From assembly GCA_038258245.1 (NCBI GenBank), contig JBBSQB010000008.1, positions 31,405 to 95,404 of the forward strand: a stretch of 64,000 bases of DNA, read 5' to 3'. This stretch comes from Chthoniobacterales bacterium. Its GTDB lineage: Bacteria > Verrucomicrobiota > Verrucomicrobiia > Chthoniobacterales > UBA10450. The position numbers and the translations under genes were made by a program. A model generated the notes under the pieces. It had not been told where the DNA came from. It worked only from the letters and a program-made list of their open reading frames with translations, and made no database searches. Positions 30,233 through 44,136 of the stretch are shown piece after piece (position 1 is the stretch's first letter; the number at the start of each line of letters is the position of its first letter).

Positions 30233-30518
30233 CGGGCTCGCGGCCGCGTGCCTCTTCTCGGAGGGACGTGCTTCCGCACGTCCGCGCATAAAGGGAAATG
30301 GCGTTTCACAGAAACGCCCTACAGAAATGGAATTGAAAATGACGAAGGGCGAAACCCGAAGCCCGAAACAATGACGAAGTCCCAATCACGAAACGGTTAC
30401 GCCGAACGACTTTTCGCGCTTGCCCAGCGGAAGTCTCCCCCGGCCGCTATCATGCCAGTCTCCCAGCGCTCCTTCGAACTTCCTCATTCGTCATTGTTTC
30501 GGGTTTCGTCATTCCACC

Positions 30519-31244
30519 CTAGTACGGTCGTCCCGCTTCGATCACCACTTTGTTATCGATGATGCGAAACGACGTCACACCGTATTCGTCGCGATATTCG
30601 TTGATGTAGCGATCGGCGTAAGTCCGCACCCGGCCAATCCCGGCGAGGTAGTTAAATATCCGTTCCGGGAATCGGGTCCCGCCCGGCGCCTTCGTCTGAA
30701 TCTCAATTCCCGAGGGGCTGCCGTCCGGCGCCGAGCGCACTTCGAAATCGGCATTCAGGTAACGGCCTTCAAACCCGAGCTTGTCGAGCGGAATGCTCAC
30801 CGCCACATGCCCGACGTTGTTCTCGATCGAAACAAAGGCGTGCCCGCGCGCCTTGCGATTCGCGGCGATGAGCTGGTTAATGTCGCCGGCCGAAAACTGA
30901 ATGGTTTGATTATTGTTCGCGGGCGGAGGAGTCGGTGTCGGCGTCTCGTTAGGCGGGAGCGGCGTGTTGGAAGGAAGAGGTGGAGGCGGTTCCTCCGTCC
31001 GCGTCGTTTCTTCAAAATTCTGCCAGCGATCTTTCACTTCATGTTGCTGCTCGGGCGACGTCTCAATGGCTGGGAGCGGCCGCGGCTCCGTCGAAGTAAA
31101 AGTTTTGCGCGTCCCGATGTAGAGCCCGTAAACGCCGGCCAAACCGAGAAAAAAGACGAGCACAAAGAGGATGAGGCAGCCGCGGCCGAGGCAGCAACTG
31201 GTGCCTTTGCGCGGTTCCGGACGAGGTTCGATTACGGTGGCCAT
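30519..31244 (-). CDS. Hypothetical membrane-anchored protein with a Pro-rich linker
   Basis: 241-aa ORF. N-terminal TM helix (CLILFVLVFFLGLAGVYGLYI) and a 'PPPPLPSNTPLPPNETPTPTPPP' linker. No family recognised. Confidence 0.5.
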   Translation of the reverse strand: MATVIEPRPEPRKGTSCCLGRGCLILFVLVFFLGLAGVYGLYIGTRKTFTSTEPRPLPAIETSPEQQHEVKDRWQNFEETTRTEEPPPPLPSNTPLPPNETPTPTPPPANNNQTIQFSAGDINQLIAANRKARGHAFVSIENNVGHVAVSIPLDKLGFEGRYLNADFEVRSAPDGSPSGIEIQTKAPGGTRFPERIFNYLAGIGRVRTYADRYINEYRDEYGVTSFRIIDNKVVIEAGRPY

Positions 31245-31255
31245 ATGCGTCTGTT

Positions 31256-31765
31256 TTATTGCGCCGCCATCTTATCCTGCGCGGCAATCAGTTTGTCGTA
31301 GAGACTCTGCAATCCTTCCGAAAGCAGGCGCGTTCCGCCTAGGATCGGCATGAAATTGGTGTCGCCGCTCCAGCGCGGGACGATGTGCAGATGCAAATGA
31401 TCGGGCACGCCCGCACCGGCGCATTCACCGAGATTCAAACCGATATTGAATCCCTGCGCCTTCACCGTGGCGCGGAGCAGCGCTTGCGCATGCGTGGCCA
31501 GCTTCCAAAGCTCAAGCATTTCATTTTCGCCTAACGACTCCAGATCGCCCGTCTTGCGATACGGCACGGCCAGCAAATGGCCGACCGCATATGGATAACG
31601 ATTCATGAGCAGAAACGCATTCTTGCGCCGCGTCACGACGAGATGCGCGGCATCGTCGTTCGTCTGCGCGGCCTCGGTCAGGAAATTGGGATTCGGCTTC
31701 TGCTCGAAGTATTCGACGCGCCACGGGCACCACAGGGTTTCGATTTCGGCTTTGGGAAATTCCAT
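31256..31765 (-). CDS. HIT family nucleotide hydrolase/phosphorylase
   Basis: Histidine triad 'VPDHLHLHIVPRW'. Confidence 0.8.
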   Translation of the reverse strand: MEFPKAEIETLWCPWRVEYFEQKPNPNFLTEAAQTNDDAAHLVVTRRKNAFLLMNRYPYAVGHLLAVPYRKTGDLESLGENEMLELWKLATHAQALLRATVKAQGFNIGLNLGECAGAGVPDHLHLHIVPRWSGDTNFMPILGGTRLLSEGLQSLYDKLIAAQDKMAAQ

Positions 31766-31814: not shown

Positions 31815-33290
31815 TTAGGAGCGCGTCAGAAAAACATAATGCGGCGTGCGATCGTCCCCGGGCCGCCAGGATTGCAAACGCGATGGAATCGCGCCCGGCA
31901 GATCACGCAAGAGCAGCGGCTCTTCCTCTGCCGGGGCCACCACCGCAGTGATCTCTCCGGCGTTCCATTTCGCAACCACGGCGGCGTGTTCGAGAAAATG
32001 CAACCGATCGAGATAAAGGAGGAGACCTTCCTCGTCGCCGCCCATCACTTCATAGTGCCAGCCGTGCGCCGCCGCCTGCGCGCGGACACTCTCGCCGAAC
32101 TTGACCAACGCTCCGCGACGATCGCGATAGGCCGCGTCCACTTTCACCGCCGTGTAACCAGCGCTGATGAGAATGGCAAACGCCAGGGCGAGGGCCGACC
32201 AGCGCAACGCCGGTTTTCGCCAGCGTTCATTCGTTAGGCATTTTCCCACCATGACGCCAAGGAGAAGCGCGAGCGGCGGGATGACCGGAAAAATGCGATC
32301 GACGCGCTTCGACGGAATGAGCGACAGGATGAGCAGCCCACCGAGACTCCACGAAATCAGCCAGAACGTTTCCGGCGAAAGATTTCTCCAACGTTCGCGC
32401 CAGCGCTTCTCCGCTGTCCCCCTACGCAACACGCCGAGCGCGATCAGGAGAATGCTCCAGGGCGCAAACTTGTGCAGCAGATGCGGCAGATAAAAATAGA
32501 TGGCCTGCGGTTTGTGGACCGTTTCGCCAAAGCGGCCGATGAATTCCTTCATCACCACCTGATTGAAAAAGCCGGAGACAAAAATCATCCCGCCAATGGC
32601 CCAGAACAGGAAAATGCCTAACGAGGCCAGCCACGGCCACCAGCCGCAAAACGCGCGACCCAATCCGCGATCGTGCCGGCGACGCCATTCCACCAGGACG
32701 ATTCCAGGCAAAAGAAACGCGTAAACGATCGGGCCTTTGATCAGCATGGCGGCGCTGAGCAGGAGAAAGCTGATCATCCGATCGGAATCGCGCCACGGCT
32801 CGGCCAGCCGCACTTTTTGCCAGATTTGCCAGCCGAGCAGAAAGACGACGAACGCCAGCGGCATATCGGTCCGCACCAGCGTGGCGATGCGCAACGAAAG
32901 CAGATTCAATCCGAACGCGCTCATCGCGATCAGCGCCGCGACCACGCCCTGCGTCTTCCCGATTGCGCGACCGATCACCCAAAGCAAACCGATCGCCGCC
33001 AGCAGAGACGGCAACCGCCAGGCCAGCGCCCATGATCCCGTCGCACCAAAGATGCCGGCCGAAATCCACCCGACCAAAGGCGGCTTGGTCGCAACCTTCT
33101 CGTTAGGCGTGTGCTGGTAAATCCAGTGACCCGCCTTCACCATTTCGAAGGACGTGTAGGCCTGCTTCGCCTGATCGTAATCGTCGAGCTGCCACGGCAA
33201 ATTCCCAAGCAGCCAGACTGCCGCGATGAGCCCGAGAACGCTCCAAAGCGTTCGCCGGTCCGTCAGAAACTTCTCGGCCAGGAGCGTCAT
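31815..33290 (-). CDS. GT-C fold membrane glycosyltransferase (ArnT/PMT family 39-like)
   Basis: 491-aa polytopic protein with 'DDYDQAKQAY...TKPPLVGWI', typical of ArnT-like enzymes. The start overlaps the kynB stop by 1 nt. Confidence 0.6.
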   Translation of the reverse strand: MTLLAEKFLTDRRTLWSVLGLIAAVWLLGNLPWQLDDYDQAKQAYTSFEMVKAGHWIYQHTPNEKVATKPPLVGWISAGIFGATGSWALAWRLPSLLAAIGLLWVIGRAIGKTQGVVAALIAMSAFGLNLLSLRIATLVRTDMPLAFVVFLLGWQIWQKVRLAEPWRDSDRMISFLLLSAAMLIKGPIVYAFLLPGIVLVEWRRRHDRGLGRAFCGWWPWLASLGIFLFWAIGGMIFVSGFFNQVVMKEFIGRFGETVHKPQAIYFYLPHLLHKFAPWSILLIALGVLRRGTAEKRWRERWRNLSPETFWLISWSLGGLLILSLIPSKRVDRIFPVIPPLALLLGVMVGKCLTNERWRKPALRWSALALAFAILISAGYTAVKVDAAYRDRRGALVKFGESVRAQAAAHGWHYEVMGGDEEGLLLYLDRLHFLEHAAVVAKWNAGEITAVVAPAEEEPLLLRDLPGAIPSRLQSWRPGDDRTPHYVFLTRS

Positions 33291-33922
33291 TAATCTCGCC
33301 AGAGAATGGCGCGCACGGGCGCCGCATCGCCGCCTTCGATTTTCAACGGCAACGCAGCGAGCTGATAGTCGCCCGCCTCGATCGTTTCCAGATTCAGGTT
33401 CTCGAGAATGGCGATGCCCGCCGTCGCGAGCGCGTGATGATTCGGCAAATCTTTCGAATCAATCGCATCGACCGACGGCAGATCGAGGCCGAGCAACTTC
33501 ACGCCCCTCGCCTTCAGCCAGACGGCCACATCGTGCGCGATCACCGGAATTATCTCCGGAAACGGCGCGCCTTCCGGCCAGGCGCCGGTCCGCAAAAGCA
33601 GACGCGGCGGCAGCTCATCGTCCGCCAGAGCCGCTTCCAAATCGGTCACCGCAATTTCCGGCCTAACGAGTCCGGTAACGTCCAACACCCGTGCCGTTCC
33701 CACAAAAAAAGCGAGCGGCATTTGATCGATCGTCGCTCCTTCCGCCTCGAAATGAAACGGTGCGTCGGCGTGCGTTCCATTGTGCGTGCTCATCTCGATC
33801 GCGCCCACGTTCACGCTCGCGCCCGCCGCCATTTTCCAGCTCAGCGCAAAACGAAACGCCGTATCGCCCGGCCACGACACGAGCTCGCGCGACAACGCAC
33901 GCGAGATGTCGAAGATTTGCAT
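33290..33922 (-). CDS. kynB: Kynurenine formamidase (cyclase family)
   Basis: About 210 aa with 'STHNGTHADAPFHF' metal-binding motif and the size typical of KynB. Confidence 0.75.
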   Translation of the reverse strand: MQIFDISRALSRELVSWPGDTAFRFALSWKMAAGASVNVGAIEMSTHNGTHADAPFHFEAEGATIDQMPLAFFVGTARVLDVTGLVRPEIAVTDLEAALADDELPPRLLLRTGAWPEGAPFPEIIPVIAHDVAVWLKARGVKLLGLDLPSVDAIDSKDLPNHHALATAGIAILENLNLETIEAGDYQLAALPLKIEGGDAAPVRAILWRD

Positions 33923-33931
33923 CGCCTCTTT

Positions 33932-34705
33932 CTACACGAACTGCCGCGCGCATTCGAGCACGCGCCGCACGTTCCCGCCCATCGCGTCGATCTCCGCGAC
34001 CAGCCGCGATCCGACCACCGCCGCATCCGCATAACGACAAACGCGCCGCGCCTGCTTCCGCTCGACACTGCCGAAACCGACCGCGACCGGCAGATCGCTC
34101 ACCCTGCGAATGCGCGCGACCAATTGCTCCGATTCATCCGCCAGCTCGCGCGCTGTTCCGGTCACGCCCGTCCGCGCCACCGCGTAGATGAATCCGCCGG
34201 CCAGGCGCGCGATTTCCCGCAAACGCCGATCGCTCGTCGTCGGCGCGACCAGAAAAATCAGGTCGATGTCGAAGCGCCGCAGTTGCTCGCGCAAAGCCGC
34301 CGCGCCTTCGGTCGAGAGATCGACCACCAATACTCCCGCCACTCCGGCAGTGGCGGCGCGCCGCGCGAATTTCGCGAGGCCGAATTGCAGAATCGGATTG
34401 TAATAAGAGAAGAGAACAACCGGCGCAAAGTCGTTAGGCCGCGACTCGTCCAGCATTTGCAAAATCTTTTCGAGCGACGTGCCGCGGGCGAGCGCGCGTT
34501 GCGCGGCCCGCTCGATGGTCGGGCCATCGGCGGTCGGATCGCTGAAGGGAACGCCCACCTCGATGGCGACCGGCCGCAACTTGCTCAGCCCGCTAAGCAG
34601 CTTGTGCGTCGTCGTCAGATCGGGATCGCCCGCGACCAGAAACGGAATGAAGCCATTGCCTTTCCGCCGGCGCAGAGCGGCGAAGCTTTCAGTCAGCGCG
34701 CTCAT
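33932..34705 (-). CDS. trpA: Tryptophan synthase alpha chain
   Basis: '[12 protein letters not shown]...[17 protein letters not shown]' TrpA signature. Confidence 0.9.
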
Positions 34706-35913
34706 CGGCGGCGTTTTAATTCCGCTTCCACGCTGGCCAGATCTTTGTCACCGCGTCCGGAAAGGTTCACGATAATGCTCTGGCGTTTCGTTAATTTGCG
34801 CGCGATGCGCAACGCGTGGGCGACCGCGTGCGCCGATTCGAGCGCGGGAATAATTCCCTCCAGATGCGCCAGTTTTTGCAACGCGCGCAACGCTTCCGCG
34901 TCGTTCACCGAAACGTATTCGACCCGCTTGTGCTCCCGCAAAAACGCGTGTTCCGGTCCGATCGCCGGATAATCGAGCCCGGCTGAAATGGAATGCGTGC
35001 TCGCGATCTGACCGGCCCGATCCTGCAATACGTAGCTCAGCGTGCCGTGGAGTACGCCCGGTTTGCCGCCGCCGCCCGTCGCGAAACGCGCGGCATGCTC
35101 GCCCAATTTTTTGCCTTTGCCGCCCGCTTCCACGCCGAGGAGCCGCACTTTTTCGTCGCCTAAAAAGCGATGGAAAAAACCAATCGCATTCGAGCCGCCA
35201 CCGATGCAGGCGATCAGCAAATCCGGCAGTTTCTTCTCGCGGGCCTGGAATTGCCGCCGCGTCTCCTCGCCGATCACTTTCTGAAATTCGCGCACCATCA
35301 GCGGATAGGGATGCGGCCCGAGCGCGCTGCCTAACAAGTAATAAGTCTCGCGCGCGTTCGCCACCCAATCGCGCAACGCTTCGTTGATCGCGTCCTTCAA
35401 CGTTTGCGAGCCGCTCTCGACGATGCGGACTTCGGCGCCGAGCAGACGCATGCGCAACACGTTCGGCTCCTGCCGCCGCACATCTTCCGCGCCCATGTAG
35501 ACGATGCATTCCAGGCCGAGCAACGCGCAGACCGTCGCCGTGGCCACGCCATGCTGGCCCGCGCCCGTCTCCGCAATGATGCGGCGCTTGCCCATCCGCT
35601 GCGCGAGCAATCCCTGGCCGAGCGCGTTGTTGATTTTGTGCGCGCCAGTGTGGAGCAAATCCTCGCGCTTGAGAAAAATCCGCGCGCCGCCCGCGTGCTC
35701 CGTCAAACGTTCCGCAAAAGTGAGCGGAGTCGGTCGGCCGGAATAGTTGCGGCGCAGATCGGACAAGGCCGCCTGGAATTTCCGGTCGCGCTGCGCGGTT
35801 CTAAAAGCGGTGGTCAACTCTTCGAGCGGCGCCATCAACGTCTCCGCGACAAAGCGGCCGCCGTATGCGCCCCAGTATCCCTTCTTGTCCGGCTCAGATC
35901 GCAACTTCTTCAT
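34702..35913 (-). CDS. trpB: Tryptophan synthase beta chain
   Basis: Start at ATG 35913 ([26 protein letters not shown]). 'HTGAHKINN' PLP-lysine motif. ATGA overlaps on both sides. Confidence 0.9.
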
Positions 35914-36575
35914 CTCGCGACGCTCTCCTCCGCCGCCGCGCGGACCGCCGCAACAAAACTTCGCACGCGCTCCTGATCCTTCAGTCCGGGCGCCGCTTCC
36001 ACGCCGCTGCAAACATCGACTGCCCACGGCCGTACCGCGGCAACAGCCGCGGCTACGTTTTCACTCGTTAGGCCGCCGGCCAGAATCAGACGAGGCAGCT
36101 TTGGTTGCAACTCCGCGGCGATCGACCACGCGAACGTTTCGCCCGTGCCGCCCACCGCAGTCGCGCTCCAGCCATCGAGCAAAACAGCGTCGCACTGGCA
36201 GGCTATCACGCTCTCTGGCTCGAAATCAGGACCGACCTGGAATGCTTTTATAATGCGCAACGGTTTCAGCTTTCGCATCGTTTCGGCGTCTTCAGTTCCA
36301 TGCAGTTGGACGGCATCGAGGGCGAGATCGGTTGCGATCTGGCGCACGAATTCCACGGGCTGATCGACGAACACGCCAATGAATTGAATGGCTGGATATG
36401 GCTCGCGAACCGTTCGCACAATTTCCGCCGCTGCGGCCGGATCGAGGCAGCGGACGCTGCGCGGCGAAAAGTTTAGCCCGATCATTTCCACGCCGGCGGC
36501 CGCGCAGCCGAGCGCGTCTGCGCTCCGCGTGATCCCGCAGACTTTGATCGCGGGGCGATTCGCGAAATCACGCAT
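35910..36575 (-). CDS. trpF: Phosphoribosylanthranilate isomerase
   Basis: 'IKVCGITR...[10 protein letters not shown]...LAGGL' TrpF pattern. Confidence 0.85.
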
Positions 36576-37377
36576 CGGATGATTGCTCTCCGCGCAGTTC
36601 CCGAATGAGCCCGGCGGGATCTTCCGCGCGCATGAGCGATTCGCCGATGAGAAATCCGCGATAACCGCAACTCGTTAGGCGCGCGATGTCGTCCGACCGG
36701 GAGATGCCGCTCTCGCTGATGAGCGTCGCGCCGGCCGGAGCGAGCGCGCTCAGCGTCACCGAAGTTTCGAGCGATGTGACAAAGGTGCGCAGGTCGCGAT
36801 TGTTGACGCCGATGAGACTGGCGCCGCACGCAGCCGCGCGCTCCATCTCGTCGGCAGCGTGCACTTCGACCAAAGCGTCGAGCCCGAGCTCGTCTTCCGC
36901 GCGTTCGCGGAGGCGTCGCAGCTCCGCATCGGAAAGAGCGGCCACGATCAGCAGAACCGCATCCGCGCCCGCCAGTGCCGCTTCGTCGATCTGCGATTCC
37001 GCGACGACAAAATCCTTGCGCAGAATCGGGAGATCGGTCGCGGCGCGGACGGCGCGCAAATCGTCGAGCGAGCCGCGAAAGAAATCCGGCTCGGTCAAAA
37101 CCGAGATCGCGCTCACGCCAGCTTGTTCGTAGATCGCGGCGATGGCCGTCGGATCGGCGTCGGCTCGAATCACGCCTAACGAGGGCGACGCGCGCTTGAA
37201 TTCGCCGATCACCTTAATGCCGCCGCCGTTCGTTAACGCGGACGAGAAACGTCGCCGCGCCTTCCCGGCGCGCGAGCGCAAAGCCTCGACCGGATCCGCC
37301 GCGATCGCGTTGTCCACGTGGGCGCGACGCCGTTCCAGAATCTCCGCGAGGAAATTCTCTTTGCTCGACTCCGTCAT
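36568..37377 (-). CDS. trpC: Indole-3-glycerol phosphate synthase
   Basis: Start at ATG 37377. 'VIGEFKRASPSLG...ISVLTEPDFF...LRKDF...IGVNNRDL' motifs. Confidence 0.9.
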   Translation of the reverse strand: MTESSKENFLAEILERRRAHVDNAIAADPVEALRSRAGKARRRFSSALTNGGGIKVIGEFKRASPSLGVIRADADPTAIAAIYEQAGVSAISVLTEPDFFRGSLDDLRAVRAATDLPILRKDFVVAESQIDEAALAGADAVLLIVAALSDAELRRLRERAEDELGLDALVEVHAADEMERAAACGASLIGVNNRDLRTFVTSLETSVTLSALAPAGATLISESGISRSDDIARLTSCGYRGFLIGESLMRAEDPAGLIRELRGEQSSDA

Positions 37378-38669
37378 CACGTCACGAGCGACCGCGTCGA
37401 CGCAAACTCCTCGTACGCGCTCGTGCTCACCACTTCGCGCAGCACCTCGATCGCCCGCCAGCATTCCGCGAAGGTGTTGTAGAGCGGCGAGGGCGCGAGA
37501 CGGACGACGTTCGGCTTGCGAAAATCGGGCATCACGCCGCGTGCGCGCAAAGCCAGGCAGATCGGCTGCGCGTGTTCGTGCACGAGCGAGACGTGGCCGC
37601 CGCGCCGCTTCGGCTCGCGCGGCGTGCCGATGGTGAATCCAAATTCGGCCAGCTCGGCATCGGCCGCGGCCATGAGAAATTCGGTTTGAGCGAGCGACTT
37701 CGCGCGAATGGCGTCGAGCCCCGCTTCCTCGATCGGCCGGAGCGCGCCATCGATCGGTGCCATGCTGAGCACAGCCGGCGTCCCGATTTGCAAGGCCGAC
37801 GCGCCCATGCCGGGAAAAAATTCATCCGACATCTCGAACATGCTTTCCTTATGGACGCTCCACCAGCCGGCCAGGCCGGCATCGACTCTTCCATCGGCAG
37901 CGAAGTGGCGGCGGTTAATGAAGAGGCCGGCCACTGAACCGGGCCCGGCATTCATGAATTTATAGTGACCCCAGCCTGCGAAATCCGCGCCCCAATCATC
38001 GAGCGCGTGCGGCATCACGCCGACCGAGTGCGACATGTCGAGGCCGATGATGACGCCGTTTTTCTGCGCAGCGCGACAGAGGCGTTCGAGGTCGAGCAGT
38101 TGGCCCGTGGTGTAAACGACCGATGGGAAAAGCGCCATTTGCAGCTCGGGATTGGCCAGTTCTTCCTCCAGTTGCGCCTCGTCGAGAAAGCGCGATTTGC
38201 CGGCTGGCGCAATGACGATGTGCTCGTCCGAATCGAGCCCGCGCAACCGCAAATGACTTCGCAGCGCATAGCGATCGGTCGGGAAACTATGCGCATCGAT
38301 CAGCACCTTCGTGCGCCGCGCTTTCGGTTGGTAAAGCGTCGAGAGCAGTTGGTGCAGATTGATCGTCATCGAGTTGGCGATCGCGATCTCGTCCGCCTGC
38401 GCGCCGACCAATTTCGCGACCCGCTCCGCCAGCGTCTCCGCCATGGTGAACCACGGCGTATCGCCGTCGAGCCAGCCGCCGATGCCGCCGGTTCTCCATT
38501 GTTCGAGCACCGCATTCAGCGTCTCTTCGGCATCGCGCGACAGCAGCCCGAGCGAGTTACCGTCCAGGTAAATCTTCCCTTTCGGCAGATAGAAACGCTT
38601 CCGAAATCTGGCCAATGTATCGGCCGCATCGAGCCGTTCAGCGACCTCGCGAGATGGTGATTGTGTCAT
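37377..38669 (-). CDS. kynU: Kynureninase
   Basis: 430-aa PLP enzyme with 'YLDGNSLG', 'YKFMNAGPG' and 'FRKPNVVRLAPSPLYN' kynureninase blocks. Its stop shares 1 nt with the trpC start. Confidence 0.85.
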   Translation of the reverse strand: MTQSPSREVAERLDAADTLARFRKRFYLPKGKIYLDGNSLGLLSRDAEETLNAVLEQWRTGGIGGWLDGDTPWFTMAETLAERVAKLVGAQADEIAIANSMTINLHQLLSTLYQPKARRTKVLIDAHSFPTDRYALRSHLRLRGLDSDEHIVIAPAGKSRFLDEAQLEEELANPELQMALFPSVVYTTGQLLDLERLCRAAQKNGVIIGLDMSHSVGVMPHALDDWGADFAGWGHYKFMNAGPGSVAGLFINRRHFAADGRVDAGLAGWWSVHKESMFEMSDEFFPGMGASALQIGTPAVLSMAPIDGALRPIEEAGLDAIRAKSLAQTEFLMAAADAELAEFGFTIGTPREPKRRGGHVSLVHEHAQPICLALRARGVMPDFRKPNVVRLAPSPLYNTFAECWRAIEVLREVVSTSAYEEFASTRSLVT

Positions 38670-38815
38670 GAGTGAACATTTGATTCGAAACGGAATCGCT
38701 CTTCGATCCTGTCGAGCAACTTAGAGAACGACCGGGGGGATTAAACCCTTTTGTATCCGTCGACTGAAAAACTTCCGCGCAATGAGAAAAAACTATTGAC
38801 TGAATTCACGCAAAC

Positions 38816-38831
38816 TGGCAGAAACGCCGCA
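38816..38831 (+). promoter_or_regulatory. Candidate sigma-54 (-24/-12) promoter element upstream of the PEP-CTERM gene
   Basis: TGGCAGAAACGCCGCA has GG and GC at the canonical spacing of TGGCAC-N5-TTGCA, 26 nt upstream of ATG 38857. The -12 TT is replaced by CC. Confidence 0.3.
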
Positions 38832-38856
38832 CTCAAGACAAAATATCAATAAATAT

Positions 38857-39609: not shown

Positions 39610-39644
39610 TCGGTTCCTGAACCCGATTCCAAAGCAGTTTTTCG

Positions 39645-39677
39645 AGCGGCGGTCTTCGGACCGCCGCTTTTCTTTTT
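39645..39677 (+). terminator. Rho-independent terminator
   Basis: AGCGGCGGTC-ttcg-GACCGCCGCT, a perfect 10-bp stem followed by TTTCTTTTT. Confidence 0.8.
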
Positions 39678-39706: not shown

Positions 39707-40252
39707 ATGGAAACGACGAAAGTAGAAGCGCCGGTCGACTTGGAGAAATGGATCGAAGAACGTCGAGACCAGTTCAAACCGCCCGTCAGCAATCAATACC
39801 TCTACGATGGGCGGGATTTTTTCGTGATGGTGATCAAAGGCCCGAATGCGCGAAACGATTTCCATCTCGTCGATTCGGAGGAGTATTTTTACCAACTGAA
39901 AGGCGACATCAAAGTGCGCGTCCGCGAAGGCGATCGCATCATCGATCATCTCGTGCGTGAGGGAGAGACCTTCTTCATTCCGCCGAATGTGCCGCATGCG
40001 CCGGTGCGGCCGCCCGACACGCTCGGCGTGGTAGTGGAACGCCGCCGGCCCGCGGGCGAGCACGAGCACGTGATCTTCTATTGCGAAAACTGCAGCGCGG
40101 TCGTCGAAGACATCGACTTCGATTGCGGCGACATCGTCGAGCATTTCAGCAAGGCGATGGTGGATTTCTGGAACGATGACGAGCGGCGCACCTGCAAAAA
40201 ATGCGGAACGAAAGTGAGTAAGCCGGAACCGGTCAAGCCGTTCAGAAAGTGA
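39707..40252 (+). CDS. nbaC: 3-hydroxyanthranilate 3,4-dioxygenase
   Basis: Start at ATG 39707. Cupin 'FHLVDSEEYFYQLKGD...REGETFFIPPNVPHAP' and a C-terminal Cys4 site 'CENC...CKKC'. Confidence 0.85.
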   Translation: METTKVEAPVDLEKWIEERRDQFKPPVSNQYLYDGRDFFVMVIKGPNARNDFHLVDSEEYFYQLKGDIKVRVREGDRIIDHLVREGETFFIPPNVPHAPVRPPDTLGVVVERRRPAGEHEHVIFYCENCSAVVEDIDFDCGDIVEHFSKAMVDFWNDDERRTCKKCGTKVSKPEPVKPFRK

Positions 40253-40331
40253 TGAGTGACCAGTGACAAGTGATGAGCAGGAGAAACGCCGCGCGGATGC
40301 ACTTTTCACTCATCACTAGTCACTCATCACT
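40248..40331. repeat. Inverted repeat of GTGATGAG/GTGAC units filling the nbaC-ACMSD spacer
   Basis: Left arm 40248-40277 (agtgatgagtgaccagtgacaagtgatgag) is complementary to right arm 40307-40331 (cactcatcactagtcactcatcact). A related unit lies at 55060-55092. Confidence 0.7.
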
Positions 40332-40337
40332 TCTCTT

Positions 40338-41408
40338 ATGATTGACCTGCATACGCATATTCTGCCGCGCGAATGGCCGGACCTGGATGCGAAATACGGC
40401 TACCCGGGATTCATCCGGCTCGAGCATCACAAGCCCTGTTGCGCGCGGATGATGAAGGGCGCGCAATTCTTTCGCGAGATCGGCGATAACACGTGGGATC
40501 CGCGGCGGCGAATTGAGGAATGCGATCGCGCTGGTGTGACGATGCAAGTGCTCTCGACCGTGCCAGTGATGTTCAGCTATTGGGCGAAACCGGCGGACGC
40601 GCTCGATCTTTCCCGCCGCTTGAACGATCACATCGCCGAAGTGGTGCGTGCGCATCCGACGCGTTTCGCGGGCCTCGCGACTATTCCATTGCAAGATGTA
40701 GAGCTGGCTGCGGAAGAGTTGCGTCGCTGCGTGCGCGACCTGGGTTTGCGCGGCGCACAAATCGGCACCCACGTGGACGCCAATTCGCATCTCGCGAGTG
40801 AAACGCGCAATCTCGAAGATCGTTCGTTCGATGTTATCTGGAGCGCAGCGCAGGAACTGGACGCTGCCATCTTCGTCCACCCTTGGGACATGATGGGCCG
40901 GGAGCGGATGCCTAAATACTGGCTGCCGTGGCTGGTCGGGATGCCAGCGGAAACGTCGCTCGCCATTTGTTCCATGATGTTCGGGGGCGTCTTCGATCGT
41001 TTTCCGAAATTGCGCGTCGCCTTCGCGCATGGCGGCGGCGCGTTTCCGGGGACAATTGGCCGCATCGAACATGGCTTTAACGTCCGGCCGGATTTGGTCG
41101 CGGTGGATAGTCAGACCAATCCGCGCCGCTACCTGGCCGACGGAAACAATGGTTCGGCGCGTTTCTATGTTGACTCGTTAGTCCACGATCCTGATGCGCT
41201 GCGTTTGTTGCTCAAGTTTTTCGGCTCTTCGCGCATCGCCCTCGGCTCCGACTATCCCTTTCCGCTGGGCGAACAGCAGCCGGGCTCGCTGATCGTTTCC
41301 ATGCCCGATGTTTCCGCGACCGATAAAGCACAGATGCTCGCGGAAACTTGCCGGGAATTTCTCGGGCTCGCGTCAGCGGATGCCAGGAAGCTGTCCGGAA
41401 GGTCGTAA
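40338..41408 (+). CDS. nbaD: 2-amino-3-carboxymuconate-6-semialdehyde decarboxylase (ACMSD, amidohydrolase_2)
   Basis: 'MIDLHTHILPREWPDL', 'STVPVMFSYWAKP', 'KYWLPWLVGMPAETS' and 'FAHGGGAFP' blocks match ACMSD as I recall it. Confidence 0.8.
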   Translation: MIDLHTHILPREWPDLDAKYGYPGFIRLEHHKPCCARMMKGAQFFREIGDNTWDPRRRIEECDRAGVTMQVLSTVPVMFSYWAKPADALDLSRRLNDHIAEVVRAHPTRFAGLATIPLQDVELAAEELRRCVRDLGLRGAQIGTHVDANSHLASETRNLEDRSFDVIWSAAQELDAAIFVHPWDMMGRERMPKYWLPWLVGMPAETSLAICSMMFGGVFDRFPKLRVAFAHGGGAFPGTIGRIEHGFNVRPDLVAVDSQTNPRRYLADGNNGSARFYVDSLVHDPDALRLLLKFFGSSRIALGSDYPFPLGEQQPGSLIVSMPDVSATDKAQMLAETCREFLGLASADARKLSGRS

Positions 41409-42198: not shown

Positions 42199-43329
42199 TC
42201 AACTCGAGCGGCGAAGGTATTCCCGATCCCACGCGGCGGGAATACTTTCGCGCGCTGAGTAAGGACCGGGCCGATAAGCGCGCGACCCAATCCCTTGCTG
42301 GCTCAATTCGCAAACGTGCCAGTCCTGTTTGTTCGTCACGTCCCAGAACTCGATCGCGTCTTCCGGATTGTAGCCGGGGTCGCTGACCCTGGCCGCTTCG
42401 GGATGAAACAGCCAATCGCAAACGACGAGTGATCGCCCCGCTGATTGCGGCCAGATCTGATGCACCATCACGTAATCAGGATGCAGGCTGAGCAGCATGT
42501 TCGGGAAGATCGAGTAATAGAAAACGCGCGCATGATCCTCGGCTGCAATATCGCCGACCGGGCGCGCGCACGCGTTGCCACTCATGGTGAGCGACGCGCC
42601 CTTCGCGATTTTCATGAAGCCGCCGAGGAACGGTCCCTCGCAGAGGTCGTTCTCCGCCGAATCGGAAGGCGAAACCTGCGAGAGCATCGGATGCACGCCC
42701 GGGCAGTGATAGCACTCGGAGTAATTTTGGAAGATCAGCTTCCAGTTCGCCGCCACGTCGTAAACGATGCGCCGCGCCGAACGCAGCTGCGGAAGATTCC
42801 AATGGCTGAATTTCCCCAGAAGCGGCGCGAAGACTTCGGCGAGCGGCGTCGCGTGTTCGTCTAGATTCACGAAGAGAAAGCCTTCCCAAGTTTCGAGCCG
42901 CGCTTCGCCTAACGAATACCCCGCGACGTCGAATCCTTTGACTTCCTGCATGTGCGGCGCGCCGGTCAATCGGCCATCGAGCGCATAGGTCCAGGCGTGA
43001 TAAGGGCATTGAATGACGCGCTGCCGGCCGCTCGCTTTCTCGCACAGGCGGCTGCCGCGGTGGCGGCAAACATTATAGAAAGCGTGCGCCGCGCCCTGCT
43101 GATCGCGCGTGATGATGAGGCTCTCCCCCGCCACTTTTTGGAGAAAATAATCACCGGCCGCCGCGAGCTGGTTTGCGTGACCAACGAGCAGCCAGTTGCG
43201 CGCGAAAATCTTCTTTTGCTCCTCGGTGAAAACATCGGGCGACACGAAATGCCGCTGAGGCAGCGTCATCGCGCCGGGCGCAAATGTCTCGGTCGTCTTG
43301 CGGAAAGAAGTGGCGGCATTCGTCGACAT
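42199..43329 (-). CDS. Rieske [2Fe-2S] aromatic-ring-hydroxylating oxygenase, alpha subunit
   Basis: Rieske motif 'CRHRGSRLC...CPYHAWTY'. Start placed at ATG 43329. Confidence 0.8.
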   Translation of the reverse strand: MSTNAATSFRKTTETFAPGAMTLPQRHFVSPDVFTEEQKKIFARNWLLVGHANQLAAAGDYFLQKVAGESLIITRDQQGAAHAFYNVCRHRGSRLCEKASGRQRVIQCPYHAWTYALDGRLTGAPHMQEVKGFDVAGYSLGEARLETWEGFLFVNLDEHATPLAEVFAPLLGKFSHWNLPQLRSARRIVYDVAANWKLIFQNYSECYHCPGVHPMLSQVSPSDSAENDLCEGPFLGGFMKIAKGASLTMSGNACARPVGDIAAEDHARVFYYSIFPNMLLSLHPDYVMVHQIWPQSAGRSLVVCDWLFHPEAARVSDPGYNPEDAIEFWDVTNKQDWHVCELSQQGIGSRAYRPGPYSARESIPAAWDREYLRRSS

Positions 43330-43437
43330 GCGTTCAGAAGCTACTGCAATTTTTATGGCAGAGGAACCAGCCGCAGTCAGCAACGCAATTTCAGTTGAGT
43401 TCCACGCAACACTGCCCATTTTTTCCTGGGCGCAACC

Positions 43438-44136
43438 GTGACTCAATCCGACAACGAACTGCAGATTGCGGAATTCACTTCCTTCGAGGACGAGAAGTTC
43501 GATCGAATTTATCCGGCGAAATTCCGGCGGCTTTCGTCGCTCCACTGGACGCAGGTGGGAGTCGCGGCCGCGGCGGCCGAACTTCTCGTTACCGCGTCCG
43601 GCACGAGAGTGTTCGATGTCGGTTGCGGCTGCGGCAAATTTCTACTCGTCGCGGCCTCATCGAGCGCCGGACATTTCACTGGGGTGGAGCAGCGCGCCGA
43701 TCTCGCCGCCGCCGCGCGCGCCGCGGCCAAACGATTGCATCTCGCCAATGTCGACATCCGGCACGGCAACATTCTCGACATCGCGTTCGCCGAATTCGAC
43801 GCGTTTTACATCTTCAATCCGTTCGAGGAAAACATGGCGCACGGCCACCGGATCGACGCGTCGGTGCAACTCTCGGCCCGGCTCTTCAAGCAATACACCA
43901 ACTACGTCGCGTCCCAGCTCGGCGCGATGCCGCTGGGCACGCGCGTCGTCACTTACGCCGGTTACGCGGATGAAATTCCATCGTGCTACACCTGCGAGAT
44001 GGCGCTCTTTCACGACGACCTGAAGCTGTGGGTCAAACACCGCGAGTTTGAACCCGATATCGAACGTCTCGGGTTGGGCGTGAGCCGCAGTTATCGCGGT
44101 GGCATCGGCTGGGTCGACCCGCGACCCGTTCGTTAG
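43438..44136 (+). CDS. Class I SAM-dependent methyltransferase
   Basis: GTG start. 'VFDVGCGCGKFLL' motif I. Confidence 0.65.
   Translation: MTQSDNELQIAEFTSFEDEKFDRIYPAKFRRLSSLHWTQVGVAAAAAELLVTASGTRVFDVGCGCGKFLLVAASSSAGHFTGVEQRADLAAAARAAAKRLHLANVDIRHGNILDIAFAEFDAFYIFNPFEENMAHGHRIDASVQLSARLFKQYTNYVASQLGAMPLGTRVVTYAGYADEIPSCYTCEMALFHDDLKLWVKHREFEPDIERLGLGVSRSYRGGIGWVDPRPVR

What the first reader, a model, noticed from the sequence alone, without database searches (positions are those of the whole stretch)
31815..38669. Tryptophan biosynthesis genes bracketed by kynurenine-pathway genes in one translationally coupled operon
The minus-strand order is kynU-trpC-trpF-trpB-trpA-kynB-GT39. The junctions are a 1-nt overlap (37377), an 8-nt overlap (36568-75), ATGA (35910-13), ATGA (34702-05), a 9-nt gap and a 1-nt overlap (33290). 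KynB and KynU convert N-formylkynurenine to anthranilate, the precursor that TrpD/F/C/B/A turn back into tryptophan. trpE/G, trpD and kynA are not in the window. A kynU-containing trp operon proposed to recapture tryptophan from kynurenine is known in some Chlamydia (C. caviae/felis lineage), which are also PVC members. Finding kynU and kynB fused to trpCFBA in an apparently free-living type of genome suggests a Trp-kynurenine-anthranilate recycling loop, or anthranilate supply independent of TrpEG. The trailing ArnT-like gene is an unexplained passenger.
Basis: partly seen in the sequence, partly recalled or inferred. Interest (0 to 1): 0.6.

Follow-up and report, generated by a model that had tools for sequence, protein, structure and literature searches.

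The report
Kynurenine-fed tryptophan operon without anthranilate synthase
A soil bacterium (Chthoniobacterales, Verrucomicrobiota) lacks the enzyme that starts tryptophan synthesis and has two kynurenine-breakdown enzymes built into its tryptophan operon, so it most likely rebuilds tryptophan from kynurenine; in the papers I searched this design is described only for a few Chlamydia.

Summary

The genome is 97% complete. It keeps the shikimate pathway (aroA, aroC) but has no chorismate-binding enzyme at all, so trpE and trpG are absent. trpD lies alone on another contig and a tryptophan dioxygenase on a third.

There are two kynureninases:
- The operon copy (kynU2) carries the Trp/Gly/Thr signature of bacterial kynurenine-preferring enzymes.
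- A second, human-like copy (kynU1, His/Ser/Asn) lies next to a monooxygenase I read as KMO. With HAAO and ACMSD, which sit just upstream of the operon in the window, it serves the 3-hydroxykynurenine branch.

Thirteen related Chthoniobacterales species genomes have kynU2 joined to trp(D)CFBA. Eleven of them lack trpE, against 1 of 24 relatives with an unjoined trpB. The GT39 "passenger" is the ancestral neighbour of kynB in a kynA-kynU2-kynB-GT39 cluster.

Best reading: KynB and KynU2 replace anthranilate synthase as the anthranilate source. It is unresolved whether the kynurenine comes from the cell's own TDO (recapture) or from soil (salvage). No expression or enzyme data exist. This is a new variant of the chlamydial kind.

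The parts
38670..38856 (-). Leader and promoter region between kynU2 and the divergent PEP-CTERM gene
   Evidence: No Rfam match. No UGG triplet, and the fold is no better than shuffles (z = -0.52). No sigma-70-like site. So there is no attenuator or T-box type of control.
37377..38669 (-). kynU2, a kynureninase of the kynurenine-preferring type and the first gene of the operon
   Evidence: TIGR01814 332.7 bits. 204 bits to P. fluorescens kynureninase 1QZ9. It has W, G and T at the positions of human H102, S332 and N333.
36568..37377 (-). trpC, indole-3-glycerol-phosphate synthase
   Evidence: NF001377 295.5 bits. The start ATG shares 1 nt with the kynU2 stop.
35910..36575 (-). trpF, phosphoribosylanthranilate isomerase
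   Evidence: Pfam PRAI 157 bits. 8-nt overlap with trpC.
34702..35913 (-). trpB, tryptophan synthase beta
   Evidence: TIGR00263 612.7 bits. ATGA overlap with trpF. It belongs to the clade of kynU2-linked trpB genes (support 93/97).
33932..34705 (-). trpA, tryptophan synthase alpha
   Evidence: TIGR00262 239 bits. ATGA overlap with trpB.
33290..33922 (-). kynB, kynurenine (aryl)formamidase; the only copy in the genome
   Evidence: TIGR03035 219 bits. 172 bits to solved KynB 4CZ1/4CO9, with the HNGTHADAPFH metal motif. Single tblastn hit in the genome.
31815..33290 (-). GT39/ArnT-like GT-C glycosyltransferase, the conserved downstream neighbour of kynB
   Evidence: Weak PMT_2 and ArnT hits. TAATG overlap with kynB. 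kynB-GT39 adjacency is conserved in L057, L058, L061, L071 and L077.
31256..31765 (-). HIT-family protein (Ap4A phosphorylase-like), same strand
   Evidence: Pfam HIT 45.5 bits; NF052622 133.7 bits, below its cut-off. It follows GT39 in G025 and L077 as well.
30519..31244 (-). orf241, unknown protein, probably the last gene of the co-directional run
   Evidence: No family hit. 11-nt gap after HIT. A homologue follows HIT in G025 and L077.
30300..30318 (-). Terminator-like hairpin after the run
   Evidence: 8-pair stem followed by a T-rich tail.
39707..40252 (+). HAAO, 3-hydroxyanthranilate 3,4-dioxygenase; part of the same kynurenine gene neighbourhood
   Evidence: TIGR03037 173.8 bits, cut-off 146; also found by the genome search. 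In relatives it lies convergent to trpA or divergent from kynU2.
40338..41408 (+). ACMSD, 2-amino-3-carboxymuconate-6-semialdehyde decarboxylase
   Evidence: 410 bits to human ACMSD 2WM1/4IGM. Its orthologue is the divergent upstream neighbour of kynU2 in most joined loci.

Best explanation
This is a tryptophan operon in which the anthranilate-producing step has changed. The usual source is anthranilate synthase (TrpE/TrpG) acting on chorismate. Here two kynurenine-pathway hydrolases take that role.

Proposed route:
1. KynB deformylates N-formylkynurenine to L-kynurenine.
2. KynU2 cleaves kynurenine to anthranilate and alanine.
3. Anthranilate goes through the unlinked TrpD, then the operon-encoded TrpF, TrpC and TrpBA, to tryptophan.

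Because the genome has no TrpE/TrpG, this is its only encoded route to anthranilate.

The cell also has a separate, animal-like branch: TDO, a KMO-like monooxygenase, KynU1, HAAO and ACMSD. This branch consumes tryptophan through 3-hydroxykynurenine. KynU2 therefore sits at the branch point and returns kynurenine to tryptophan.

What is shown:
- Gene identities, the tight coupling and the absence of trpEG.
- The specificity signatures of the two kynureninases.
- The recurrence of the joined operon, and its association with trpE loss, across 13 related species genomes.

What is inferred:
- Co-transcription.
- The actual substrate preference of KynU2.
- Flux from kynurenine to tryptophan.
- The source of kynurenine. 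It could be the cell's own TDO, which gives recapture with no net gain. It could be imported kynurenine, N-formylkynurenine or anthranilate, which gives net salvage by a tryptophan auxotroph. I lean slightly towards salvage being what selection maintains.
For: 1. No PF00425 (chorismate-binding) hit in the own genome (97.3% complete), while all 14 control genomes ring. tblastn with E. coli TrpE and with a same-family TrpE and TrpG also finds nothing beyond weak hits of TrpG to other glutamine amidotransferases. aroC (49% identity), aroA, nadA, nadB and nadC are found.
2. trpD (TIGR01245 329.9 bits, above its cut-off) has GTGGD, KHGN and NLLGPLLNP motifs like E. coli TrpD. trpC, trpF, trpB and trpA are single-copy, in this operon.
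3. KynU2 has W/G/T where human kynureninase has H102/S332/N333. KynU1 has H/S/N and scores 420 bits to the human enzyme. All 27 distinct Chthoniobacterales kynU2 orthologues examined are W/G/T, and all 7 distinct kynU1 sequences (own copy included) are H/S/N. [quoted passage not shown]
4. kynU1 lies 0.9 kb from a KMO-like FAD monooxygenase. HAAO and ACMSD are in the window. The 3-hydroxykynurenine branch therefore has its own kynureninase.
5. In 12 further species genomes kynU2 directly abuts trp(D)CFBA, and also on a 3.5-Mb ENA contig. kynU2 occupies the position that trpG-trpE hold in the canonical family operon trpG-trpE-trpD-C-F-B-A (G011).
6. trpE is absent in 11 of 13 joined genomes, against 1 of 24 family genomes with an unjoined trpB. 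Fisher p = 1e-6.
7. The joined genomes represent different genera, yet all keep intact, coupled trp genes (trpB 79-84% identical). That argues for selection on anthranilate-to-tryptophan conversion without TrpEG.
8. Published precedent for the logic: the C. caviae/felis/pecorum operon (PMC3937554).
Against: 1. Nearly every genome of the family, joined or not, has its own TDO. The loop can therefore close internally, and a closed Trp-kynurenine-Trp loop yields no net tryptophan. The selective benefit is not established.
2. No kynurenine or aromatic amino-acid transporter is in or next to the operon.
3. kynU2 also occurs unlinked to trp genes in trpE-positive relatives. It habitually neighbours HAAO and ACMSD, so it may be primarily a catabolic gene.
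4. Two joined genomes keep trpE: G065 has a separate trpE-trpG pair, and G018 has a trpE cut by a contig end. Joining does not require loss.
5. The trpB of joined operons is one clade. The trpE losses are therefore few independent events, and the Fisher test overstates independence.
6. The W/T motif is a hallmark, not proof of specificity (PMC11329768 says as much).
7. KynU2 and KynB are relatively Trp-rich (1.9% and 2.4% W). The Trp enzymes have 0-1.4% and long ORFs of the genome 1.3%. That is awkward for an operon needed under tryptophan starvation.
8. The unlinked trpD type also persists in two relatives that lack trpB and trpE (G001, G033), so its role is not beyond doubt.
Confidence: 0.7

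Rival explanations
1. Catabolic island with incidental adjacency. KynU2 and KynB, together with HAAO, ACMSD, TDO, the KMO-like enzyme and KynU1, only degrade imported tryptophan for carbon, nitrogen or NAD. The trp genes merely landed in this neighbourhood. Loss of trpEG reflects the family's general drift towards amino-acid auxotrophy, and the remaining trp genes are on their way out or serve indole salvage.
For: kynU2 is flanked by ACMSD and HAAO in most loci and stands alone in trpE-positive relatives. Seven of the 37 family genomes lack trpB, six of them trpE as well, yet nearly all keep kynU1, TDO and HAAO. Published Ca. Udaeobacter genomes of the same order are described as multiply auxotrophic.
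Against: Five trp genes stay intact and translationally coupled to kynU2 in 11 trpE-less genomes of different genera. Indole salvage would need only trpB(A), not trpD, trpF and trpC. The 3-hydroxykynurenine branch already has its own kynureninase of the matching type. kynU2 takes the exact operon position of trpG-trpE.
Confidence: 0.12
2. Anthranilate scavenger. The retained TrpD-F-C-B-A pathway runs on anthranilate imported from other soil microbes. KynU2 and KynB are co-located only because they share a regulator or product (anthranilate) with the pathway, and they contribute little flux.
For: Partial trpDCFBA operons without trpEG exist in other bacteria without any kynU (earlier scan notes, unchecked). 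No kynurenine importer is seen near the operon. All pathway steps from anthranilate onward are present.
Against: It does not explain why kynU2 specifically heads the operon with start/stop overlaps in 13 genomes. It does not explain why kynB is inside the operon in the window type. No anthranilate transporter is evident either.
Confidence: 0.1
3. Assembly artefact. trpE/trpG exist in this organism but fall in the unassembled 3% of the MAG, so the operon is simply a trp operon with kynurenine genes nearby.
For: The genome is a 78-contig MAG. In G018 the only trpE signal sits at a contig end, which shows that such genes can be split or missed.
Against: trpE is missing from 11 independent assemblies with the joined operon. 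These include near-closed ones: G025 (4 contigs, 97% complete) and G023 (5 contigs). It is found in 23 of 24 comparable assemblies with an unjoined trpB.
Confidence: 0.03

Closest known systems
[quoted passage not shown]
   Same: A trp operon that encodes every step except anthranilate synthase and includes a kynureninase. The genome lacks trpE/G although chorismate is still made. The proposed role is regeneration of tryptophan from kynurenine.
   Different: - Gene order: there the operon is trpR, five trp genes, then kynU and prsA, with kynU near the 3' end. Here it is kynU2-trp(D)CFBA(-kynB), with kynU first.
- No trpR here, no prsA in the operon, and no Trp-codon leader.
- kynB is included here.
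- The chlamydiae rely on host IDO for kynurenine. This soil bacterium has its own TDO and a full second kynurenine branch.
- kynU2 is native to a local kynA-kynU-kynB cluster, so recruitment was most likely independent. The phylogeny against chlamydial kynU was not run.
Bacterial anthranilate branch of the kynurenine pathway, kynA-kynB-kynU clusters (Kurnasov et al. 2003, from my own knowledge; solved KynB structures 4CZ1, 4CO9, 4COB, 4COG)
   Same: The same three enzyme families: a cyclase-type zinc formamidase KynB and a W/T-type kynureninase. Close relatives have a tight TDO-kynU2-kynB operon (L057, L058).
   Different: In the known clusters anthranilate is an end product or feeds catabolism or quinolone signals. 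Here trpCFBA lies between kynU2 and kynB, TDO is unlinked, and anthranilate synthase is gone.
Partial trpDCFBA pathways without trpEG (anthranilate-dependent tryptophan synthesis)
   Same: Anthranilate-entry pathway, with the genome auxotrophic for a precursor.
   Different: Those carry no enzyme that makes anthranilate. Here an anthranilate-producing module is encoded in the same operon.
   Same: A kynureninase heads a trp operon that lacks anthranilate synthase.
   Different: That cassette is described with a Trp-codon leader and an ABC importer, and as spreading horizontally among intracellular bacteria. None of these features is seen here. No look-alike of kynU2 was on record in the scan.

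Membership tests
Chlamydial-type kynU-containing trp operon (Trp/kynurenine/Trp cycle) | The trp operon lacks trpE/trpG and the genome has no anthranilate synthase | tested here: met
   PF00425 is absent from the genome. tblastn with E. coli and same-family TrpE/TrpG finds none.
Chlamydial-type kynU-containing trp operon (Trp/kynurenine/Trp cycle) | Kynureninase gene within the trp operon | tested here: met
   The kynU2 stop shares 1 nt with the trpC start. The junction is conserved in 12 more genomes.
Chlamydial-type kynU-containing trp operon (Trp/kynurenine/Trp cycle) | All steps from anthranilate to tryptophan are encoded | tested here: met
   trpC, F, B and A in the operon. trpD on contig C2, above the TIGR01245 cut-off and with canonical motifs.
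Chlamydial-type kynU-containing trp operon (Trp/kynurenine/Trp cycle) | trpR repressor and prsA (PRPP synthase) as operon members | tested here: not met
   No PF01371 hit in the genome. No prsA among the nine co-directional genes.
Chlamydial-type kynU-containing trp operon (Trp/kynurenine/Trp cycle) | Kynurenine is supplied by a host (IDO); the bacterium has no dioxygenase of its own | tested here: not met
   The genome has its own TDO on C9 (270 bits to PF03301). The related MAGs come from soil metagenomes.
Kynurenine-preferring bacterial kynureninase (KynU, P. fluorescens type) | Kynureninase family membership with the PLP lysine | tested here: met
   TIGR01814 332.7 bits. The YKFMN lysine aligns with human SYKYLN.
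Kynurenine-preferring bacterial kynureninase (KynU, P. fluorescens type) | Trp and Thr at the positions of human H102 and N333 | tested here: met
   GGWLDG and QIGTPA. The criterion comes from PMC11329768.
Kynurenine-preferring bacterial kynureninase (KynU, P. fluorescens type) | Higher kcat/Km for kynurenine than for 3-hydroxykynurenine | not testable with these tools
   Needs an enzyme assay.
Kynurenine formamidase KynB (cyclase family) | Sequence membership and the binuclear-zinc motif HxGTHxDxPxH | tested here: met
   172 bits to 4CZ1/4CO9 with HNGTHADAPFH. TIGR03035 gives 219 bits, 4 bits below its cut-off.
Bacterial kynA-kynB-kynU anthranilate-pathway cluster | TDO, formamidase and kynureninase clustered together | tested here: not met
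   In this genome TDO is on another contig, and kynU2 and kynB are separated by trpCFBA. The full cluster exists in relatives L057, L058 and L077.

The most novel reading that the evidence does not exclude
Kynurenine and N-formylkynurenine are the main oxidation products of free and protein-bound tryptophan. They may act as an exchanged or scavenged tryptophan precursor in soil. A widespread clade of peptide-feeding Chthoniobacterales would then have given up chorismate-based tryptophan synthesis and live on 'oxidised tryptophan', converting it back with KynB, KynU2 and TrpD-A. The presence of kynB, which is useless for kynurenine itself, fits a feedstock of N-formylkynurenine. That would make this a salvage or repair route for a damaged amino acid in free-living bacteria, not a host-pathogen device.
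Probability: 0.3. Interest if true: 0.75.

Novelty: new variant of a known kind. Interest (0 to 1): 0.62.

Why it matters
The only published case of a kynureninase inside a trp operon is a small group of animal chlamydiae, where it is read as a counter-measure to host tryptophan depletion. A 2014 review says kynU is not known in any other trp operon (PMC3937554).

Here the same logic appears to have been assembled independently, in at least 13 species-level genomes of free-living soil Verrucomicrobia. This suggests that replacing anthranilate synthase with a kynurenine module is a general evolutionary solution, not a peculiarity of intracellular pathogens.

Practical consequences:
- Automated predictions would score these genomes as "tryptophan pathway one step short". 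A published Ca. Udaeobacter MAG was reported with tryptophan "1/12 enzymes missing", but I did not check whether that is the same situation.
- It yields a directly testable idea about kynurenine or oxidised tryptophan as a nutrient in soil.
- The two co-resident kynureninases with opposite specificity signatures form a natural pair for studying how flux is split at kynurenine.

Tried and rejected
- **Control element in the leader.** I looked for a riboswitch, T-box or attenuator upstream of kynU2. There is no Rfam hit, no UGG triplet, and the fold is no better than shuffles. Upstream regions of 20 orthologous loci share no obvious motif.
- **trpE in a 3.5-Mb, probably closed, contig with the joined operon (L095).** The record is not held for whole-record search.
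- **Deletion scar for trpEG.** I compared the trpE-trpG locus of G065 with the own genome. There is no conserved synteny, so this was uninformative.
- **Is the kynurenine pathway needed for NAD?** No. nadA, nadB and nadC are present.
- **Do joined genomes lack TDO, which would force exogenous kynurenine?** No. 11 of 13 have one, and the two without are small MAGs whose completeness was not reported. The test does not separate recapture from salvage.
- **Single or multiple joining events from the kynU2 tree.** The tree is star-like. Only the grouping of the window with type-A loci L057/L058 is supported (98/94).
- **Weak chorismate-binding hit in G025.** It is not TrpE. By eye it looks like an isochorismate synthase (an HPTAALG motif where TrpE has TFPAGTVSGAPK), and it scores 113 bits against about 300 for TrpE.
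- **Phylogeny against chlamydial kynU/kynB.** Not done.
- **A whole-window TGG search.** This was a wasted call.

Full report
**Observation**

- The kynureninase scores 332.7 bits on TIGR01814.
- TrpC, TrpB and TrpA pass their NCBIfam cut-offs. TrpF passes only its Pfam cut-off: its best NCBIfam model gives 196.7 bits against a cut-off of 215.
- KynB misses the TIGR03035 cut-off by 4 bits. It matches solved kynurenine formamidases at 172 bits and keeps its zinc motif.
- The last gene is a weak ArnT/PMT-like GT-C glycosyltransferase.

Reading the junctions directly confirms TGATG, ATGCGTGA, ATGA, ATGA, a 9-nt spacer holding AAGAGG, and TAATG. The true trpC start is 37377 and the true trpB start is 35913.

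The co-directional run continues through a HIT gene and an unknown ORF to a hairpin at about 30300. Internal terminator-like hits are at the chance level. The same coupling is seen in orthologous loci.

**The rest of the pathway in the genome**

The window is contig C8 of a 3.15-Mb, 78-contig assembly that is 97% complete.
- trpD is alone on C2. It has E. coli-like GTGGD, KHGN and NLLGPLLNP motifs.
- A tryptophan 2,3-dioxygenase is on C9.
- No chorismate-binding domain exists anywhere, although the same search rings in all 14 control genomes.
- tblastn with E. coli TrpE and with TrpE and TrpG from a relative of the same family finds nothing except weak hits of TrpG to other amidotransferases.
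- aroC, aroA, nadA, nadB and nadC are all found.

The shikimate pathway is therefore kept, the aspartate route to NAD is kept, and anthranilate synthase specifically is missing.

**Two kynureninases with opposite signatures**

The genome search found a second kynureninase on C14. It lies 0.9 kb from a KMO-like FAD monooxygenase.
- This copy, kynU1, scores 420 bits to human kynureninase and has His, Ser and Asn at human positions 102, 332 and 333.
- The operon copy, kynU2, has Trp, Gly and Thr there, as does the P. fluorescens enzyme.
- All 27 distinct Chthoniobacterales kynU2 orthologues examined are W/G/T, and all 7 distinct kynU1 sequences (own copy included) are H/S/N.
- PMC11329768 describes W102/T333 as strictly conserved among bacterial kynurenine-preferring enzymes and H102/N333 as the hallmark of 3-hydroxykynurenine-preferring ones. 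It adds the caveat that the motif is not by itself sufficient.

HAAO (39707-40252) and a human-like ACMSD (40338-41408) lie just upstream of the operon on the other strand.

I read this as two branches from kynurenine. One runs through the KMO-like enzyme, KynU1, HAAO and ACMSD. The other runs through KynU2 to anthranilate.

**Relatives**

Record titles identify the lineage as Chthoniobacterales / Verrucomicrobiota MAGs. Two hits are labelled soil metagenome; the sample origin of the others is not shown. Comparison of 36 family genomes and 16 further species genomes shows four arrangements:
- **A:** TDO-kynU2-kynB-GT39(-HIT-orf241), with kynU2 and kynB overlapping by 1 nt (L057, L058; L077 also has TDO; L071 runs kynU2-kynB-GT39 with no TDO detected upstream).
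- **B:** kynU2-trpD-trpC-trpF-trpB-trpA (nine genomes).
- **C:** kynU2-trpC-trpF-trpB-trpA, with or without kynB-GT39 behind it (the window, G065, G072 and a 3.5-Mb ENA contig).
- **D:** kynU2 alone.
- One further genome, G068, has the order trpB-trpA-kynU2. It is counted among the 13 joined genomes.

Further points:
- ACMSD is usually the divergent upstream neighbour, and HAAO the convergent downstream or divergent neighbour.
- The canonical family operon is trpG-trpE-trpD-C-F-B-A (G011), so kynU2 occupies the position of trpG-trpE.
- The window's kynU2 groups with type A loci (98/94). The window looks like a type A cluster with trpCFBA lying between kynU2 and kynB.
- This explains GT39: it is the ancestral neighbour of kynB.
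- trpB genes of joined operons form one clade (93/97), apart from the canonical-operon and stand-alone trpB clades.

**Association with loss of trpE**

Of 13 genomes with kynU2 joined to trp genes, 11 have no trpE.
- G065 keeps a separate trpE-trpG pair.
- G018 has a genuine trpE C-terminus cut by a contig end.
- The weak hit in G025 is, by eye, an isochorismate-synthase-like protein.
- Of 24 family genomes with an unjoined trpB, 23 have trpE. Fisher p = 1e-6.

Because the joined trpB genes are one clade, the number of independent losses is small (at least two), so the p-value overstates the evidence.

Seven other family genomes lack trpB, and six of these lack trpE as well. They keep TDO and HAAO where these were checked, and kynU1 in all but one, the 68%-complete G013. 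The family as a whole oxidises tryptophan through kynurenine and tends towards auxotrophy. This agrees with published descriptions of Ca. Udaeobacter, which belongs to the same order. I did not establish that this MAG belongs to that genus.

**Mechanism and its weak point**

The encoded chemistry is N-formylkynurenine to kynurenine (KynB), kynurenine to anthranilate plus alanine (KynU2), then TrpD, TrpF, TrpC and TrpBA to tryptophan. Without TrpEG this is the only encoded source of anthranilate.

Retention of five intact, coupled trp genes in 11 trpE-less genomes of different genera argues that the route is used.

The weak point is the source of kynurenine.
- Every reasonably complete genome has one TDO, so the loop can close inside the cell. 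A closed loop gives no net tryptophan. It only returns kynurenine that the 3-hydroxykynurenine branch did not take.
- Net gain needs imported kynurenine, N-formylkynurenine or anthranilate, and no transporter is evident.
- KynU2 and KynB are richer in tryptophan (1.9% and 2.4%) than the Trp enzymes (0-1.4%). The same objection was raised for the chlamydial enzyme.
- No regulatory element was found: no trpR, no leader peptide, no Rfam element and no unusual fold.

**Comparison with what is known**

[quoted passage not shown] It lacks anthranilate synthase and carries kynU and prsA. The 2014 review states that these two genes are not known in any other trp operon. Literature searches for a verrucomicrobial or soil counterpart found nothing.

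The present system shares the defining logic and differs as follows:
- gene order, with kynU first;
- kynB is included;
- there is no trpR and no prsA;
- the organism has its own TDO and a second kynurenine branch;
- the habitat is soil, not a host cell.

Neither feature is seen here, and no sequence look-alike is on record.

**Verdict**

- I file this as a new variant of a known kind: an apparently independent, clade-wide replacement of anthranilate synthase by a kynurenine module in free-living soil bacteria.
- Confidence in the central mechanism is 0.7.
- The choice between internal recapture and external salvage is open.

Noticed in passing
window 39707-41408 (+): HAAO and a human-like ACMSD (410 bits to 2WM1) lie about 1 kb upstream of the operon, behind a PEP-CTERM gene with a strong terminator (39644-39669). 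In relatives the same two genes flank the kynU2-trp operon directly.
   Followed up: yes
own genome C14:35881-39640: A second, human-like kynureninase (kynU1, H/S/N type) lies 0.9 kb from a KMO-like FAD monooxygenase. Its best NCBIfam hit is VioC at 212 bits, far below that cut-off, so the KMO assignment is by context and similarity only.
   Followed up: partly
own genome C9:34013-38889: The only TDO (long type, 270 bits to PF03301) sits directly upstream of what looks by eye like a selenocysteine-type formate dehydrogenase alpha subunit: two ORFs split at an in-frame TGA after ...NQARI. Formate is the product of KynB. Not checked with any family search.
   Followed up: no
family genomes: Each of the 23 (of 25 searched) genomes with a TDO hit appears to have exactly one TDO. 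It is either a long type (about 260 bits, one stretch) or a short type of about 260 aa (two stretches, 130 + 57 bits), never both. The short type is the one found next to kynU2-kynB.
   Followed up: partly
own genome, whole: The absence of any PF00425 protein means there is also no PabB, MenF or EntC-type enzyme. p-Aminobenzoate, and any isochorismate-derived quinone, must come from elsewhere or by another route.
   Followed up: no
L037, L035, L038, L048 (operon-type trpD of relatives): The trpD inside relatives' operons, including the canonical trpGEDCFBA of G011, has GTGSS and KHGS where E. coli and the window genome's unlinked TrpD have GTGGD and KHGN. It is only 37-41% identical to the unlinked type.
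   Followed up: partly
G061, G062, G071, G011: The unlinked trpD type carries one in-frame stop codon (TGA or TAG) in four relatives. The same type persists in G001 and G033, which lack trpB and trpE.
   Followed up: no
L077 6788-8136: In one type A locus (TDO-kynU2-kynB-GT39-HIT-orf241) kynU2 is split into two overlapping ORFs. This is a frameshift or an assembly error.
   Followed up: no
L044 (G042, another family of the order): A more distant kynU (42% identity, W/S/T) and kynB lie convergent to, and about 5 kb from, a trpE-trpG pair. A histidine kinase and a LytTR response regulator sit in between.
   Followed up: no
window 42199-43545 (-): A lone Rieske ring-hydroxylating oxygenase alpha subunit lies about 800 nt beyond ACMSD. 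Its best hits are the GbcA type (235 bits, below cut-off) and anthranilate dioxygenase large subunit (106 bits). No partner subunits are nearby.
   Followed up: no
window 31815-33290 (-): The GT39-like protein is 5.3% tryptophan (26 W in 491 aa). It is translationally coupled to kynB at the end of a tryptophan-regenerating operon.
   Followed up: no
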